From the human T2T-CHM13v2.0 reference genome, Homo sapiens: 64,000 bases of DNA. The notes beneath the pieces were generated by a model, which saw only the letters and a list, made by a program, of their open reading frames with translations, searched no databases and was not told the DNA's origin. Positions 7,261-23,362 of this stretch are shown here, piece after piece. Every line of letters starts with the position of its first letter. Position 1 is the first letter of the stretch. Position numbers and translations under genes: made by a program. Location of the stretch: NCBI RefSeq assembly GCF_009914755.1, contig NC_060946.1; one strand, 5' to 3'.

Positions 7261-7623
7261 TTTGTCAGGTCTTAAGTTTGTCAGGCTGTCACACAGAAGG
7301 CATAGACTTTGCATGGAGAGATGCAAGGGTGCTTCTGAAGAAAGACTCTTTGGCTCCTCTATAGAGCCTCTTGGGGCCTGAAATTCAGAGATGCAGGTCG
7401 CGCCCTGCCAGAAAGATTAGGCAGTGTCCAGTTAGGAGCCAGAGCCTGTGTGGGTGCTGTAGGGGCAACTATGGGCTCTGTGACACCAGGCAGATGGGGT
7501 GGGGGCCACCAGAGGTGCATGGGAGCAGTGGGCCCTGGGAAGGGCATTCACCCTTACCAGTACACATCTGTTTCAATGTGAGGTGGAGACTCTGACCTGT
7601 GCCCCAAACCTCTGTTCCCACAG

Positions 7624-7802
7624 GGAGAAGGCCTGCCTGGTGGACGAGGACTCCCACTCTTCAGCTGGGACACTGCCGGGCCCCGGAGCCTCCCTCCCCT
7701 CCTCCTCTGGCCCAGGTCTGACATCCCCACCTTACACAGCCACTCCGATTGACCACGATTACGTCAAATGTAAAAAACCCCACCAGCAGGCAACGCCGGA
7801 CG
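7624..7802 (+). CDS. CABIN1: CABIN1 internal coding exon (179 nt, phase 2-1): [15 protein letters not shown]...[10 protein letters not shown]
   Basis: Acceptor ctgttcccacAG (7622-23), weak donor ACG|GTACAG (7803). AA+G completes Lys from the previous exon. Matches part of ORF 7499..7948. Confidence 0.94.
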
Positions 7803-7892
7803 GTACAGTCCCTGTTCTCCCTACTGCCAGCCCAGGGCGGCACATCAATCACGGGGGGGTGCTCGGACGACTCATTTTGTCGCTTCGTTTTG
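7803..7892 (+). CDS. CABIN1: Candidate in-frame 90-nt alternative extension of the 7624 exon (+[30 protein letters not shown])
   Basis: Open frame up to a second phase-1 donor TTG|GTGAGG exactly 90 nt downstream. CpG-rich for intronic sequence. Confidence 0.55.
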
Positions 7893-7906
7893 GTGAGGGG
7901 GGGTGC

Positions 7907-8036
7907 TGGGTCTGGGGTGACACGGGCAATGTTGCGGCTGCTCATTAACCTCATGGATTCACAGTGATTCTTGTGCTTCCGAGACATGCTCAGGGTCGCC
8001 ACCTGCCAGCTTGCCCACCTGGGAGCCAGGGGAGGG
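7907..8036 (+). repeat. 130-bp direct duplication, copy B
   Basis: Partner of 6304-6433; retains 4 CpGs. Confidence 0.93.
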
Positions 8037-11000
8037 GGCAGGCCAGGCTATGGCATCTCACATCTTTGAGCCTTCTTTTTCTCGCCTGCAAAATGGGGAC
8101 ATGACATCTACTTTGAAAGGAAGTTAGAAGAGTGTGGCCTCCTGGAGGGGCTCCTGGTGCAGTCAGCTTAGTGATGCCTGCATTGTTCAGCAGCACATTG
8201 TTACTGCTCTGTCCTTCTGAAGGTTGAGGGAAGGCCGTGACTAGTTCTAAGTCTGTCACCCCTGAGAATCCAGATAAGTTGTTAATGGGGGTCACCTGGG
8301 ACCATATGTGTGGCCATGCCATGTGGGATGGGGCAGGTGGCGACTGTTCAACCACATTCCTTACTAACATTAGGAGGCTTGCATGCTGGCCTGTAGCTCG
8401 ATTTCTTCATGTTCTCTCATTTTTATAGTGATAAGCTAGTGACAAAGTACTTGCTGGGATAAGCCAAATTGGTGATTTAAGAGGACCACTAAAGTGGAGT
8501 CCTGGGAGGTAGTGACAATGCTGAAAGACACCTGGGCCCTCACTCCTATGTCACTCATCTCATCTGGGCTTGGGGAAACAGGCCTTGCTCTGCATTCCCC
8601 AAGGCATGGGGATGCTAGTAGGTGGGTAGAATTGGTCCCAGGGCTCTGCTTCCTGCCAGATAGTCTTTATAGAGTGGCTCCTTGGAGTAAGAATGGGCAC
8701 TCTAGGGCACCATGGTAGCCTTGAAGTTCAGTCCCAGTACAGGTCTGGGGGGGGCCACCACCTTCGCTCTAGTGCCCTGCTGAGGCCCTTGCCCAGTGCT
8801 CGGGTTCCTGGATATAGCATGGGCATCTGCCTCCAACTTTCTGAACTAAGTGGGTAGGGCTTGAGAGCAGGTTTAAAGAAGTGCTGGAGAAGGATGACAA
8901 GGGGGCCAATGCTCCATTTCTCTGGGGGCAGGATTTGCTATTCTCAAGAAAGGAAAGGAGACCTGCAGTGTCCCCTCCTGGGTTTGGTTTGGATCTACAG
9001 CATGCGTGTTGAGAGAGGCTGAGGATCTGAGTGTGTGCTGTGTCTCTTACCTCCTGGAAGGTTCATGTCATTACTCCCAGTCTCAGCACTGACACCTCGC
9101 TGCCCACCCCAGAGTGTTAAGCAGAGATGGGAAGAACTGACCCACCTGCTCCTCCAATCTTCAGTTCTGCAGACTTTCCCTGTTAAGATCCTCTCTCCCC
9201 TTCTTAGTTAAGTTAATCACCCTGTTCCCAAACTTTTACTCTTGAGAATATTGAGAAAACATACTAGCAGCAAACCCCTTCTCAGGGAATTAGTTTTTGC
9301 CAGCTGCTTCCTGGGAGGAAGCACTATGCCAAAGTTTTCAGGAGAGGAATGCCTTTCCTGGTTGTCCACATGCCATGTGGCCGTGCTCACATGCACCTGG
9401 GCTAGGGAACCCAAGCACTGTCCTCTGCAGCTCTGCAGGCTCCCACTGAGGTCACGCCACATGCGCCACTGTGCTTGGATGTCAGCCCATTAGGGTTGAG
9501 TATGCCTCTAGAAGCAGGAAAGGAGGGAGGCAGGAGCGCCTCAGAAAGGGGGCCATGATGCCAGCTGTCCCATGTTGGCACATATGTGTGCATGAAGCTG
9601 TTGGTGAGCCACTGCAGATCACTCAGGCATGACAACTGGGCATGACAGGTCCTGGGTGCCAACATGCTAGTTATTTGTTCTGGAAGTTTGCAGAGGGAGC
9701 CATACAAATAAGTTCAAATATGGTTTCAGTGGTTGCACAGTTTTGAACATTTGTTTAAAAAAAATGTCTTCAAAGTGATTCCTGTCAAAGACACAAAGCC
9801 ATCAGGATCCCATGGCCCATCTTTGCCCAGTCCCAGCCCTGCACTGGCCACCTGTGTGCTCTGCCCAGGCCTGGCTGCATAATGCTTTCAGAACTCAGCT
9901 GCCTCACCTCTGAGAGAAAGCAGTGTCTGCAACATGAAAATGTTTGGGGTCCTAAAATAGCTGTGATCTTAGAATGTTAAAGTGGCCCTTTCAGCAGCTA
10001 TACTAGTTCCTAGGGGAAGGCCCAGGTTCCAGGGAGAAGCAGCAGATTGCTGGTGTCAGGGGATGTGCTGGTGGCCTCAAGGGGCCACACTGCCCACCTC
10101 TGTTCCTGCTTCTCCTTCCTGGGAGGAGAACATGTAGTTCCTAGTTTCCACTCAGCTTCTTGGCCTGAGACCAGCCTTGGGTCTACTGTGAGAGGAGAGG
10201 GGCGTCAGCACTGATTGCAGGCCACCACTGAGCCCTTATACTACCAGGAGGGTGATGGGTGCTTCTAGCCCTGGTACAGCTGAGGAGAAGCAGTCACGGG
10301 GAGGTCAGATGGGGAGGTCAGACAGGGAGGCAAGTGCACAGCAGGCCCTGGTCAAAGGATCTGATTTCCAGTCCCAGCTCCATTGCATATGTGCTCTGCA
10401 ACCTTGGACAAAGGACTTCACTTCTCAATTTCCTCACCTGTTGAATGGGGTAATGTCTTCGTTATGGGTATTAAACAAAAGTGCTTGTACATTGCAGCCA
10501 CCTCCTGGATGGAGTTCTCCAAGTCATTGGTGGAACTAGGGTAAGACCTAGGTAGCACTGCATAGAGGGAAGAGCCTGGGCTCTGGGGCCAGTCCCCCTC
10601 AGTTTGCACCCCACCTCTCTCCAGCTAGTGGCATGGCCTCACAAGAGGTGGAGGTAGTGTCCTCTGAAGCAGCAGCTCCTGAGTGGGCTTGGGCATGGGG
10701 CTTTCTGGATCCTGGTTTCCTACCCCCACAGAACAATTAACTTTCCAGCAGTGGGAGAGGGAGCCAGGCGTCAGGACTTTCCTTGGGCATGGTTAGGAGA
10801 CCTTGCATTGGAGCTGCCTTCCCACATTGGTATGCCTTTGCTTCAAAACCAGAAATCAGCTAGGATCAATTCTGATTTGGTTTAAGATTTAGAAAAGATT
10901 TAGAAAAATAGCTCCAGGTACATGTGGGTTGTTTGACATTTGATAATAGCTGCTTCATAGGACCCAAATTTGTTCTCTGAACCACCCTCACCTGCAACCT

Positions 11001-23179: not shown

Positions 23180-23362
23180 ACCGAAGCCAGGACAGCACAG
23201 CCGTAGCACTCTCAGACTCTAGCTCAACGCAGGACTTCTTTAATGAGCCCACCAGCTTACTGGAAGGCTCCAGGAAATCCTACACAGAGAAGAGGCTGCC
23301 CATTCTCAGTTCCCAAGCAGGAGCGACGGGTAAAGATCTTCAGGGGGCCACAGAAGAAAGAG
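23180..23362 (+). CDS. CABIN1: CABIN1 internal coding exon (183 nt, phase 1-1): (D)[60 protein letters not shown](G)
   Basis: Long pyrimidine tract ending cccctcAG (23178-79), donor GAG|GTATGA (23363). G+AC completes Asp; open frame throughout. Confidence 0.93.

What the first reader, a model, noticed from the sequence alone, without database searches (positions are those of the whole stretch)
7803..7898. In-frame 30-aa exon extension via a stronger downstream 5' splice site
Seen: the exon's donor ACG|GTACAG is poor at +4 to +6. Exactly 90 nt downstream, TTG|GTGAGG is closer to consensus and in the same phase (1). The intervening sequence is stop-free ([30 protein letters not shown]) and keeps 6 CpGs, unusual for methylated intron. 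Inference: competing donors give a +30-aa CABIN1 isoform with a basic/hydrophobic tail ([11 protein letters not shown]) inserted into a low-complexity linker.
Basis: partly seen in the sequence, partly recalled or inferred. Interest (0 to 1): 0.7.

Follow-up and report, generated by a model that had tools for sequence, protein, structure and literature searches.

The report
Annotated, non-conserved CABIN1 alternative donor
A stronger-looking splice donor 90 bases inside a CABIN1 intron would add 30 in-frame amino acids in humans, but it is already annotated, other mammals do not keep it, and the CpG-rich sequence around it looks like a conserved non-coding intron element, not hidden coding sequence.

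Summary
The donor at 7802 is ACG|GTACAG. A second donor, TTG|GTGAGG, lies exactly 90 nt downstream in the same phase. The stretch between them is stop-free, reads [30 protein letters not shown], and holds 6 CpGs.

The hub's RefSeq table already lists an exon 7624-7892, so the extended exon is known at annotation level.

I had no vertebrate DNA or RNA-seq. Instead I used 42 gene models and ORFs from other vertebrates that read through the canonical donor. Sixteen mammal-type sequences reach the second donor's position:
- 8 cannot have GT there.
- 3 have GT but out of frame.
- 4 are unresolved.
- 1 (Sorex) is modelled with a 27-aa extension.

The flanking sequence is nevertheless conserved in whichever frame it is read, into birds, and the first ~30 nt into fish-like ORFs. 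This is non-coding conservation, and it explains the CpG retention.

The canonical donor is weak only in the standard U1 register. With C+4 bulged it pairs as GUA-AGU.

Verdict: a real, in-frame, probably minor and lineage-restricted alternative 5' splice site. It is not a conserved coding isoform. Interest is low.

The parts
7624..7802 (+). CABIN1 coding exon of NM_012295.4 (179 nt). It encodes ...[59 protein letters not shown].
   Evidence: Hub annotation. Sequence and translation. The peptide is 100% identical in many mammals.
7800..7810 (+). Canonical 5' splice site ACG|GTACAGTC. It is weak in the standard U1 register and is predicted to pair with U1 with C+4 bulged out (G-1, G+1, U+2, A+3, then A+5, G+6, U+7).
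   Evidence: PWM 2.74 bits, the lowest of 6 donors. duplexfold finds the bulged pairing. Bulged -5.5 against canonical -4.3 kcal/mol. 40 of 42 read-through ORFs start G-T/I-V.
7803..7892 (+). The 90-nt optional exon extension. It is in frame, stop-free, holds 6 CpGs, and is annotated as part of exon 7624-7892 in other RefSeq transcripts.
   Evidence: hub annotation.
7890..7898 (+). Alternative 5' splice site TTG|GTGAGG, followed directly by a run of G.
   Evidence: PWM 6.98 bits, top 3.2% of GTs. Six contiguous U1 pairs, -8.6 kcal/mol. GT is excluded in 8 of 16 mammal-type orthologous ORFs.
7803..7850 (+). Conserved intron block A, directly after the canonical donor.
   Evidence: [14 protein letters not shown] is kept in most mammal-type ORFs. 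GTVPVL(N)T is kept in bird-type ORFs. DGTVPVLDTAS is kept in fish-like ORFs (E 4e-6 to 2e-4).
7853..7859 (+). G7 run between the two donors, where most reading-frame changes between species occur. It is a candidate hnRNP H/F site: intronic for donor 7802 and exonic for donor 7892.
   Evidence: Frame switches at or near this run in P0001, P0161 and P0165 (and P0002, P0003 diverge there). The protein binding is inference.
7897..7961 (+). Conserved intron block B, downstream of the alternative donor (G-runs, then ...GTGACACGGGCAATGTTGCGGCTGCTCATTAACCTCATGGATTC). In mammals the similarity continues to about 8049.
   Evidence: The human frame-1 reading [21 protein letters not shown] is 93-95% identical in P0161 and P0167 and 85% in P0004. 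VTRAIL..LIN is kept in P0007, P0008, P0009 and P0174. P0171 and P0004 match on to 8031/8049.
7713..7721 (+). A third annotated donor, CAG|GTCTGA, at 7715. It shortens the exon by 87 nt (29 codons, also in frame).
   Evidence: Hub annotation (exon 7624-7715). Sequence. PWM 4.10.
7947..7949 (+). First in-frame stop (TAA) if the intron is read through.
23180..23362 (+). Next coding exon, whose acceptor is shared by all three donors. It begins ACCGAAGC, so either G|AC junction gives Asp.
   Evidence: hub annotation. 12 models in other mammals skip this exon (PDGK.EE junction).

Best explanation
7803-7892 is the optional part of a CABIN1 exon that has competing 5' splice sites. The standard donor at 7802 is old, being kept across bony vertebrates. 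It looks poor only in the usual U1 register. With C+4 bulged out it pairs as G|GUA-AGU, and it probably also relies on the conserved intron sequence and G-runs that follow it. The donor at 7892 is a consensus-like GT that lies inside this conserved intronic element. In humans it is in frame and is annotated as an alternative exon end, adding 30 residues to a region that lies between the Pfam domains. It is not conserved as a donor or as a reading frame in other mammals. It is therefore most likely a minor, lineage-restricted isoform with no shown function. The retained CpGs reflect purifying selection on a non-coding, probably splicing-regulatory, element and not on coding sequence.

Shown: the sequence features, the annotation, the lack of frame and GT conservation, and conservation that is independent of frame.

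Inferred: the bulged U1 register, the role of the G-runs, the low usage, and the splicing role of the element.
For: - Anatomy.
- Annotation: exon 7624-7892 is listed in the hub table.
- Donor strengths: PWM 2.74 against 6.98 bits. U1 duplex -5.5 kcal/mol (bulge at +4) against -8.6. The bulged register beats the canonical one by 1.2 kcal/mol and +5 is A. The passages and Table 3 of PMC4856993 that I read list single-nucleotide bulges at +4 as a register class (1118 predicted, 652 after removal of +5G sites) and use ddG <= -1 as 'substantial'.
- Conservation of the donor core: 34 of 42 read-through ORFs begin GTV and 6 begin GIV. This fixes A+3, G+6 and U+7. Position +4 varies (Thr ACN against Ile ATH), as expected for a bulged base.
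- No coding constraint: of 16 mammal-type sequences that reach the 7892 site, 8 exclude GT. These are P0005, P0171, P0006, P0170 and P0165 (Ala), P0161 and P0172 (Leu), and P0167 (Asp). Three imply GT but out of frame (P0001, P0160, P0162; extensions of 91, 86 and 86 nt by my count). Four are unresolved (Gly GGN: P0159, P0004, P0163, P0164). One (Sorex X2, P0049) is modelled with a 27-aa extension.
- Frame-independent conservation: tblastn places successive pieces of single ORFs in different human frames.
- Isoform models: none of the 158 proteins held after joins a human-type 30-aa extension to the next exon, although more than 20 Macaca mulatta isoforms are among them.
- CpG-rich zone: it extends to about 8000, past the second donor.
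- G-runs: 6 runs of G>=3 lie in +1..+130, a count reached by 5.2% of 4746 background windows.
Against: - I saw no RNA-seq junction counts, so 'minor' rests on the choice of NM_012295.4 as the selected transcript and on the absence of the form from other species' models.
- 9 of the 16 mammal-type sequences are in frame 0 at the site (27-30 codons), more than the one third expected. The rows are related to each other, and homopolymer sequencing errors could shift frames either way.
- GT presence or absence is read from amino acids of gene models and unnamed ORFs, not from DNA.
- The PWM uses recalled frequencies. MaxEntScan was not run.
- The bulged-register advantage is modest (1.2 kcal/mol) and untested.
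- No significant RNA structure (z = +1.31) and no Rfam family gives the conserved element a mechanism.
- G-run enrichment is not specific to this intron: two other introns in the window have 5 and 8 runs.
Confidence: 0.7

Rival explanations
1. One reading: the 90 nt are a conserved, functional coding extension, and the +30-aa CABIN1 isoform is under selection. The open frame and the retained CpGs are its signature.
For: In frame and stop-free in human. Annotated exon end (hub table). A hominid-like ORF, P0159, is identical over the extension. 9 of 16 mammal-type sequences are in frame 0 at the site with 27-30 codons, and Sorex X2 (P0049) is modelled with an in-frame 27-aa extension. The first 14 residues, [14 protein letters not shown], are widely kept.
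Against: GT is excluded in 8 of 16 sequences and out of frame in 3 of 16. The second half of the peptide differs completely between species and partly matches other human frames. Conservation continues past the donor in another frame and into birds, where the aligned position reads E or Q (by eye). An open frame of this length occurs in 31.5% of intronic 90-mers. No such isoform appears among 158 proteins that include many primate isoform sets.
Confidence: 0.1
2. The conserved CpG-rich block (7803 to about 8050) is a DNA-level element, such as an intronic transcriptional enhancer or a locally unmethylated region, that merely abuts the exon. The second donor is then an accidental GT with no link to the conservation.
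For: Conservation reaches birds and perhaps fish for block B, as is typical of vertebrate conserved non-coding elements. No RNA structure signal. CpG retention could also come from hypomethylation.
Against: Conservation starts at the first intron base and is strongest in the first ~30 nt next to an unusually weak donor, which points to RNA-level use. The hub table lists no RefSeq functional element at 7803-8050. The fish match to block B is weak: E 2e-4 and 0.024, while 13 hits at E<=0.01 arose from 220 shuffled control queries.
Confidence: 0.15
3. The 7624-7892 exon end is only a model artefact, built for example from unspliced or partly spliced reads, and the 7892 donor is essentially never used.
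For: Gene models in many species read through the weak canonical donor and end in the intron (P0001, P0003, P0006, P0007, P0029). This shows that the junction confuses annotation pipelines. I could not see which accession carries the exon or what supports it.
Against: An exact exon end at a consensus-like GT (top 3.2% of GTs) with a preserved frame is what a real junction would give. An independent RefSeq model in Sorex uses an equivalent extension (P0049).
Confidence: 0.05

Closest known systems
Alternative 5' splice site (A5SS) events with in-frame competing donors
   Same: Two (in fact three: 7715, 7802, 7892) GT donors share one acceptor. All three preserve the frame, and all are listed in RefSeq (hub table).
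   Different: The predominant donor is the one furthest from consensus. The stronger distal donor is not kept in other mammals.
5' splice sites recognised by U1 through a single-nucleotide bulge at +4 (PMC4856993, passages and Table 3 read)
   Same: ACG|GUACAGUC pairs best with C+4 bulged (7 pairs). ddG is -1.2 kcal/mol against the canonical register, and there is no G at +5.
   Different: This is only predicted here. I did not check whether this site is in that paper's lists, because its supplements were not opened.
Intronic G-run (hnRNP H/F) enhancers downstream of weak 5' splice sites, and G-runs in donor choice (for example the REST N exon, PMC3390395, and TP53 G-runs, bioRxiv 10.1101/2024.10.07.617118; only the starts of their abstracts were seen in the listing)
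   Same: Six G>=3 runs lie within 130 nt of the weak donor, two of them G7. One lies between the donors and one directly after the distal donor.
   Different: No binding or functional data. G-run length varies between species. The enrichment is modest (5.2% of background windows reach it).
Conserved intronic sequence flanking regulated exons (general knowledge, recalled, no paper read)
   Same: About 150-250 nt of intron next to the exon is conserved in mammals and partly in birds and fish, in a frame-independent way.
   Different: I had no nucleotide alignment. Conservation is inferred from translated read-through models only.

Membership tests
Alternative 5' splice site (annotated A5SS) | A second GT with donor-like context downstream of the main donor, sharing the same acceptor | tested here: met
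   TTG|GTGAGG at 7892/7893. PWM 6.98 bits, top 3.2% of 3598 GTs. U1 duplex -8.6 kcal/mol.
Alternative 5' splice site (annotated A5SS) | Transcript evidence for the junction | not testable with these tools
   Only the hub's RefSeq table (exon 7624-7892 in other transcripts). No RNA-seq, EST or accession details were available. Literature searches found nothing on this event.
Conserved protein-coding exon extension | Reading frame preserved across species (indels in multiples of 3, no stops) | tested here: not met
   7 of 16 mammal-type sequences are out of frame at the site. Single ORFs switch between human frames 0, 1 and 2. This is a protein-level proxy, not a DNA alignment.
Conserved protein-coding exon extension | Splice donor GT conserved | tested here: not met
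   GT is excluded by the residue at the site in 8 of 16, implied in 3, unresolved in 4, and 1 is spliced in a model.
Conserved protein-coding exon extension | Conservation confined to the coding part and stronger at the amino-acid than at the nucleotide level | tested here: not met
   Conservation continues to at least 7961 (8049 in rodent-like ORFs) in a different frame. The CpG-rich zone runs to about 8000.
Bulge +4 U1-register 5' splice site | Bulged register more stable than the canonical one by at least 1 kcal/mol, and no G at +5 | tested here: met
   -5.5 against -4.3 kcal/mol with ViennaRNA. +5 is A. Criteria are as in PMC4856993.
Bulge +4 U1-register 5' splice site | Rescue by bulge-register, but not canonical-register, suppressor U1 snRNAs | not testable with these tools
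   Needs a minigene experiment.
U12-type intron | 5' splice site consensus of the /RTATCCTT type (recalled) | tested here: not met
   The intron starts GTACAGTCC. The acceptor has a long pyrimidine tract and AG.
Known structured RNA (Rfam) | Match to an Rfam covariance model, or a fold more stable than shuffles | tested here: not met
   Only one sub-threshold hit on the opposite strand (15.9 bits against 40, E 0.79). Fold z-score +1.31.

The most novel reading that the evidence does not exclude
An ancient intronic module sets donor choice at this CABIN1 exon: a non-consensus, bulge-register 5' splice site followed by about 150-250 nt of non-coding sequence conserved across bony vertebrates. 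A consensus GT that arose within this module, in frame, on the lineage leading to humans (and independently or patchily elsewhere, for example Sorex) has created a young isoform. That isoform carries a 30-aa insert upstream of the MEF2-binding domain. Its usage could be tuned by factors that bind the G-runs on either side of the new donor.
Probability: 0.25. Interest if true: 0.4.

Novelty: already known. Interest (0 to 1): 0.2.

Why it matters
The result matters mainly as a caution. An open frame plus retained CpGs next to an exon can come from a conserved non-coding splicing element and not from hidden coding sequence.

CABIN1 is a subunit of the HIRA histone-chaperone complex (abstract of PMC6171237, listing) and a repressor of MEF2 (passage of PMC9293871). 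If the +30-aa form were abundant in some tissue, it would alter the region between the TPR-containing part of CABIN1 and the MEF2-binding domain. In the orang-utan orthologue P0114 the TPR matches lie at residues 92-134, the junction is at residue 1371, and the MEF2_binding domain is at 2153-2187.

The weak but deeply conserved donor is a good natural test case for the bulged U1 register. It also appears to explain why many automated gene models in other species end inside this intron.

Tried and rejected
- MaxEntScan and SpliceAI are not installed. I used a PWM from recalled frequencies and ViennaRNA U1 duplex energies instead.
- No vertebrate genome or RNA-seq collection is on hand. Scans of genome contigs and viral contigs for a relative of the 89-aa exon-plus-extension peptide found none (600 and 63 pattern matches, none confirmed by tblastn). 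A nucleotide alignment of the 90 nt was therefore impossible.
- Rfam search of 7400-8400: one sub-threshold hit only.
- Single-strand fold of 7780-8000: less stable than the shuffles (z = +1.31). I dropped the idea of a structure that masks the distal donor.
- Scan for Rbfox (UGCAUG/GCAUG) and UGUGU motifs in 7803-8000: none. There are five YCAY and eight YGCY, which I did not evaluate further.
- Literature: 'CABIN1' with 'alternative 5' gave 1 paper, with 'splice' 139 papers (25 listed), and with 'A5SS' 2 papers. Passages read in PMC3722564, PMC9293871 and PMC12204229 do not mention this event. PMC12204229 only names the isoforms CABIN1-201 and CABIN1-202 as differentially used. I found no description in print of the 7892 donor in these searches. 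Supplementary tables were not opened and might list it.
- U12-type intron: rejected on sequence.
- No structure or complex prediction was run. A 30-residue insert outside the Pfam domains did not justify one.

Full report
**1. What is in the sequence**

The CABIN1 exon 7624-7802 ends ...CCG GAC G|GTACAGTCC. Exactly 90 nt further on lies TTG|GTGAGGGGGGG, with its GT at 7893-7894.

Codons run from 7625. Both donors therefore split a codon after its first base, and the next exon (23180, ACCGAAGC...) completes G|AC = Asp in either case.

Translation of 7625-7951 gives ...[55 protein letters not shown].

The 90 nt hold 6 CpGs (o/e 0.77).

The hub's RefSeq table already lists two further exon forms, 7624-7715 and 7624-7892. 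The first uses CAG|GTCTGA and removes 87 nt, which is also in frame. The exon therefore has three annotated, frame-preserving donors.

**2. Is it more than chance?**

- **Open frame: no.** 31.5% of 20717 intronic 90-mers of this window are stop-free in a fixed frame. So are 43.9% of 5000 shuffles of the 90 nt itself.
- **Donor strength: moderately.** MaxEntScan is not installed. With a log-odds matrix from donor frequencies that I recalled, 7892 scores 6.98 bits, and 115 of 3598 + strand GTs (3.2%) reach that score. 7802 scores 2.74, the weakest of the six NM_012295 donors in the window (the others score 6.08-9.45). 7715 scores 4.10.
- **CpG density: yes.** Only 0.56% of 61956 intronic 90-mers hold 6 or more CpGs. 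They lie in seven stretches, several of them inside stretches the hub table lists as repeat-masked.
- **The CpG-rich zone is wider than the 90 nt.** 7803-8002 holds 10 CpGs, against 2-5 in the first 200 nt of the other five introns and 0 in the 200 nt upstream of this exon.

**3. Cross-species evidence**

No vertebrate DNA collection was available, and scans of the prokaryotic and viral collections found nothing. The protein databases, however, hold many gene models and short ORFs that run through the canonical donor into the intron. These give a translated view of the orthologous sequence.

Searches with the 89-aa exon-plus-extension peptide and with a rhinoceros model returned:

| Length range searched | Result |
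|---|---|
| 157-2000 aa | 43 proteins |
| 745-2373 aa | 429 proteins, best 120 listed |
| 48-156 aa | 19 proteins |
| every representative protein read | 21 proteins, 11 of them new |

Of the 188 proteins in hand, 42 are of the read-through type.

Of the 158 proteins held:
- 120 have the canonical junction PD[D/E]RSQDS.
- 12 skip the next exon (PDGK.EE).
- None joins a human-type 30-aa extension to the next exon, although more than 20 Macaca mulatta isoforms are listed.
- The Sorex araneus X2 model (P0049) has an in-frame 27-aa extension, GTVPVPLCSPGGTPPREGASGSQALCF|ERSQDS.

No entry named Homo sapiens appeared in these lists, so I could not inspect the human isoform proteins themselves.

**4. 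Frame and donor conservation**

I ran tblastn of the read-through tails against human 7601-8300. Single ORFs match successive human segments in different frames:
- Marmoset P0001 is in frame 0 up to 7855 and then in frame 2. It ends ...FW, where the human reads TGG TGA across the distal donor.
- P0005 goes through frames 0, 2 and 1.
- P0161, P0165 and P0167 move from frame 0 to frame 1.

Most switches lie at or near the G7 run 7853-7859.

Sixteen mammal-type sequences reach the position of the distal donor. The residue at that position gives the following:

| State of GT at the site | Sequences | Count |
|---|---|---|
| Excluded | Ala in P0005, P0171, P0006, P0170, P0165; Leu in P0161, P0172; Asp in P0167 | 8 |
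| Implied, but extension not a multiple of 3 | P0160 and P0162 (86 nt), P0001 (91 nt), by my count | 3 |
| Unresolved (Gly codon GGN) | P0159 (identical to human), P0004, P0163, P0164 | 4 |
| Spliced in the model | Sorex P0049 | 1 |

P0004's close relative P0005 shows GCG at the site, so P0004 probably also has GC. This is an inference.

Nine of the 16 are in frame 0 at the site, with 27-30 codons. That is more than one third. However, the rows are related to each other, two are the same rat-type sequence, and homopolymer errors are possible. I read this as inconclusive and not as evidence of coding constraint.

In bird-type and unnamed sauropsid-like ORFs (P0007, P0008, P0009, P0174) the position reads E or Q. 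That alignment is by eye.

**5. What is conserved instead**

- **Block A (7803 to about 7850).[14 protein letters not shown] is kept in most mammal-type ORFs, GTVPVLNT in bird-type ORFs, and DGTVPVLDTAS in fish-like ORFs (E 4e-6 to 2e-4).
- **Block B (about 7897-7961).** Read in human frame 1 as [21 protein letters not shown], it is 93-95% identical in P0161 and P0167 and 85% in P0004. It is recognisable as VTRAIL..LIN in the bird-type and sauropsid-like ORFs.
- **Further downstream.** Rodent-like ORFs keep matching to 8031-8049.
- **Fish.** A fish-like match LRLLITMLN / LRLLINLMD (E 2e-4 and 0.024) is only suggestive, because 220 shuffled control queries gave 13 hits at E<=0.01.

Conservation that ignores the reading frame and passes straight through the distal donor marks a non-coding element. 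It accounts for the retained CpGs.

The element has no Rfam match. It folds no better than shuffles (z = +1.31).

**6. How the weak donor may work**

ViennaRNA's best duplex between ACGGUACAGUC and the U1 5' end bulges C+4. It pairs G-1, G+1, U+2 and A+3, and then A+5, G+6 and U+7. The energy is -5.5 kcal/mol, against -4.3 in the canonical register.

This is close to two other constitutive donors in the window (-5.8 and -6.7). It is weaker than the distal donor's -8.6.

The passages and Table 3 of PMC4856993 that I read list single-nucleotide bulges at +4 as a register class, use ddG <= -1 kcal/mol as 'substantial', and remove sites with G at +5. This site has A at +5.

Consistent with this, 34 of 42 read-through ORFs start GTV and 6 start GIV. 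A+3, G+6 and U+7 are thus fixed across bony vertebrates. The base at +4 varies: C in Thr ACN, T in Ile ATH. The two shark-type ORFs differ (GIF, GII).

Six runs of G>=3 lie within 130 nt of the donor, a count reached by 5.2% of 4746 background windows. One G7 run lies between the donors and one directly follows the distal GT.

From general knowledge (recalled; only abstract starts were seen), intronic G-runs bound by hnRNP H/F favour an upstream weak donor, and the same runs tend to repress when they are exonic. That would favour 7802 over 7892. This step is inference.

**7. Verdict**

The competing-donor reading is right, and the exon form is already annotated.

The inference that the stretch is constrained coding sequence is not supported. 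The distal donor and its frame are not kept in other mammals, and the constraint belongs to a non-coding element next to an unusual, deeply conserved donor.

The insert would fall between the TPR-containing part of CABIN1 and the MEF2-binding domain. In the orang-utan orthologue P0114 the TPR matches are at residues 92-134, the junction is at residue 1371, and the MEF2_binding domain is at 2153-2187. No Pfam family covers the site.

I rate it already known and of low interest. The side observation has modest interest: a bulge-register donor followed by an ancient intronic element.

**8. What remains open**

- Usage of the 7892 junction in human tissues.
- The accession type behind the annotation.
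- Nucleotide-level alignments.
- Any experimental test of the U1 register and of the G-runs.

Noticed in passing
window 7803-8049: About 150-250 nt of intron directly after the exon is conserved regardless of reading frame in mammal-type ORFs. Block 7917-7949 ([11 protein letters not shown] in human frame 1) is also kept in bird-type and unnamed sauropsid-like ORFs, and the first ~30 nt in fish-like ORFs. The function is unknown. There is no Rfam hit and no stable fold.
   Followed up: partly
window 7713-7721: A third annotated donor, CAG|GTCTGA, at 7715 shortens the exon by 87 nt (29 codons, in frame). Salmonid models (P0039, P0041, P0043) also use an upstream junction in this exon (KRKTLR|SQDS).
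   Followed up: no
window 23180-23362: 12 of the 158 proteins held after (primates, carnivores, a mole, a rodent) join PD|GK(N/I/T)EE. They skip this 183-nt (61-codon, in-frame) exon, so the donor at 7802 also takes part in an exon-skipping event.
   Followed up: no
P0001, P0003, P0006, P0007, P0029: Named gene models in marmoset, black rhinoceros, rat, a manakin and goat run through the weak canonical donor and end inside the intron ('cabin-1-like', 'partial', 'hypothetical protein'). They look like annotation artefacts caused by the non-consensus donor.
   Followed up: partly
P0177 and P0037 (Coregonus models): Two whitefish models insert different 22-24-residue stretches between ...QQAD and (E)CSQDS. 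One of them starts GTVPVLD, which is an extension from the same donor. They are probably ab initio choices of a downstream donor.
   Followed up: no
window 7803-7967: Frame 1 (not the exon's frame) is also open for 55 codons across the whole region. This shows how easily this GC-rich stretch stays stop-free.
   Followed up: yes
P0050 (Mustela lutreola X1): This model carries a 9-residue insert (GRTTWMTLS) between PD and ERSQDS. The insert does not match the intron start, so it may come from an alternative acceptor or a micro-exon.
   Followed up: no
P0178: A 767-aa protein made of tandem ~60-residue repeats hit the query weakly (12 stretches on residues 56-78). It looks like a chance low-complexity match, unrelated to CABIN1.
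   Followed up: no
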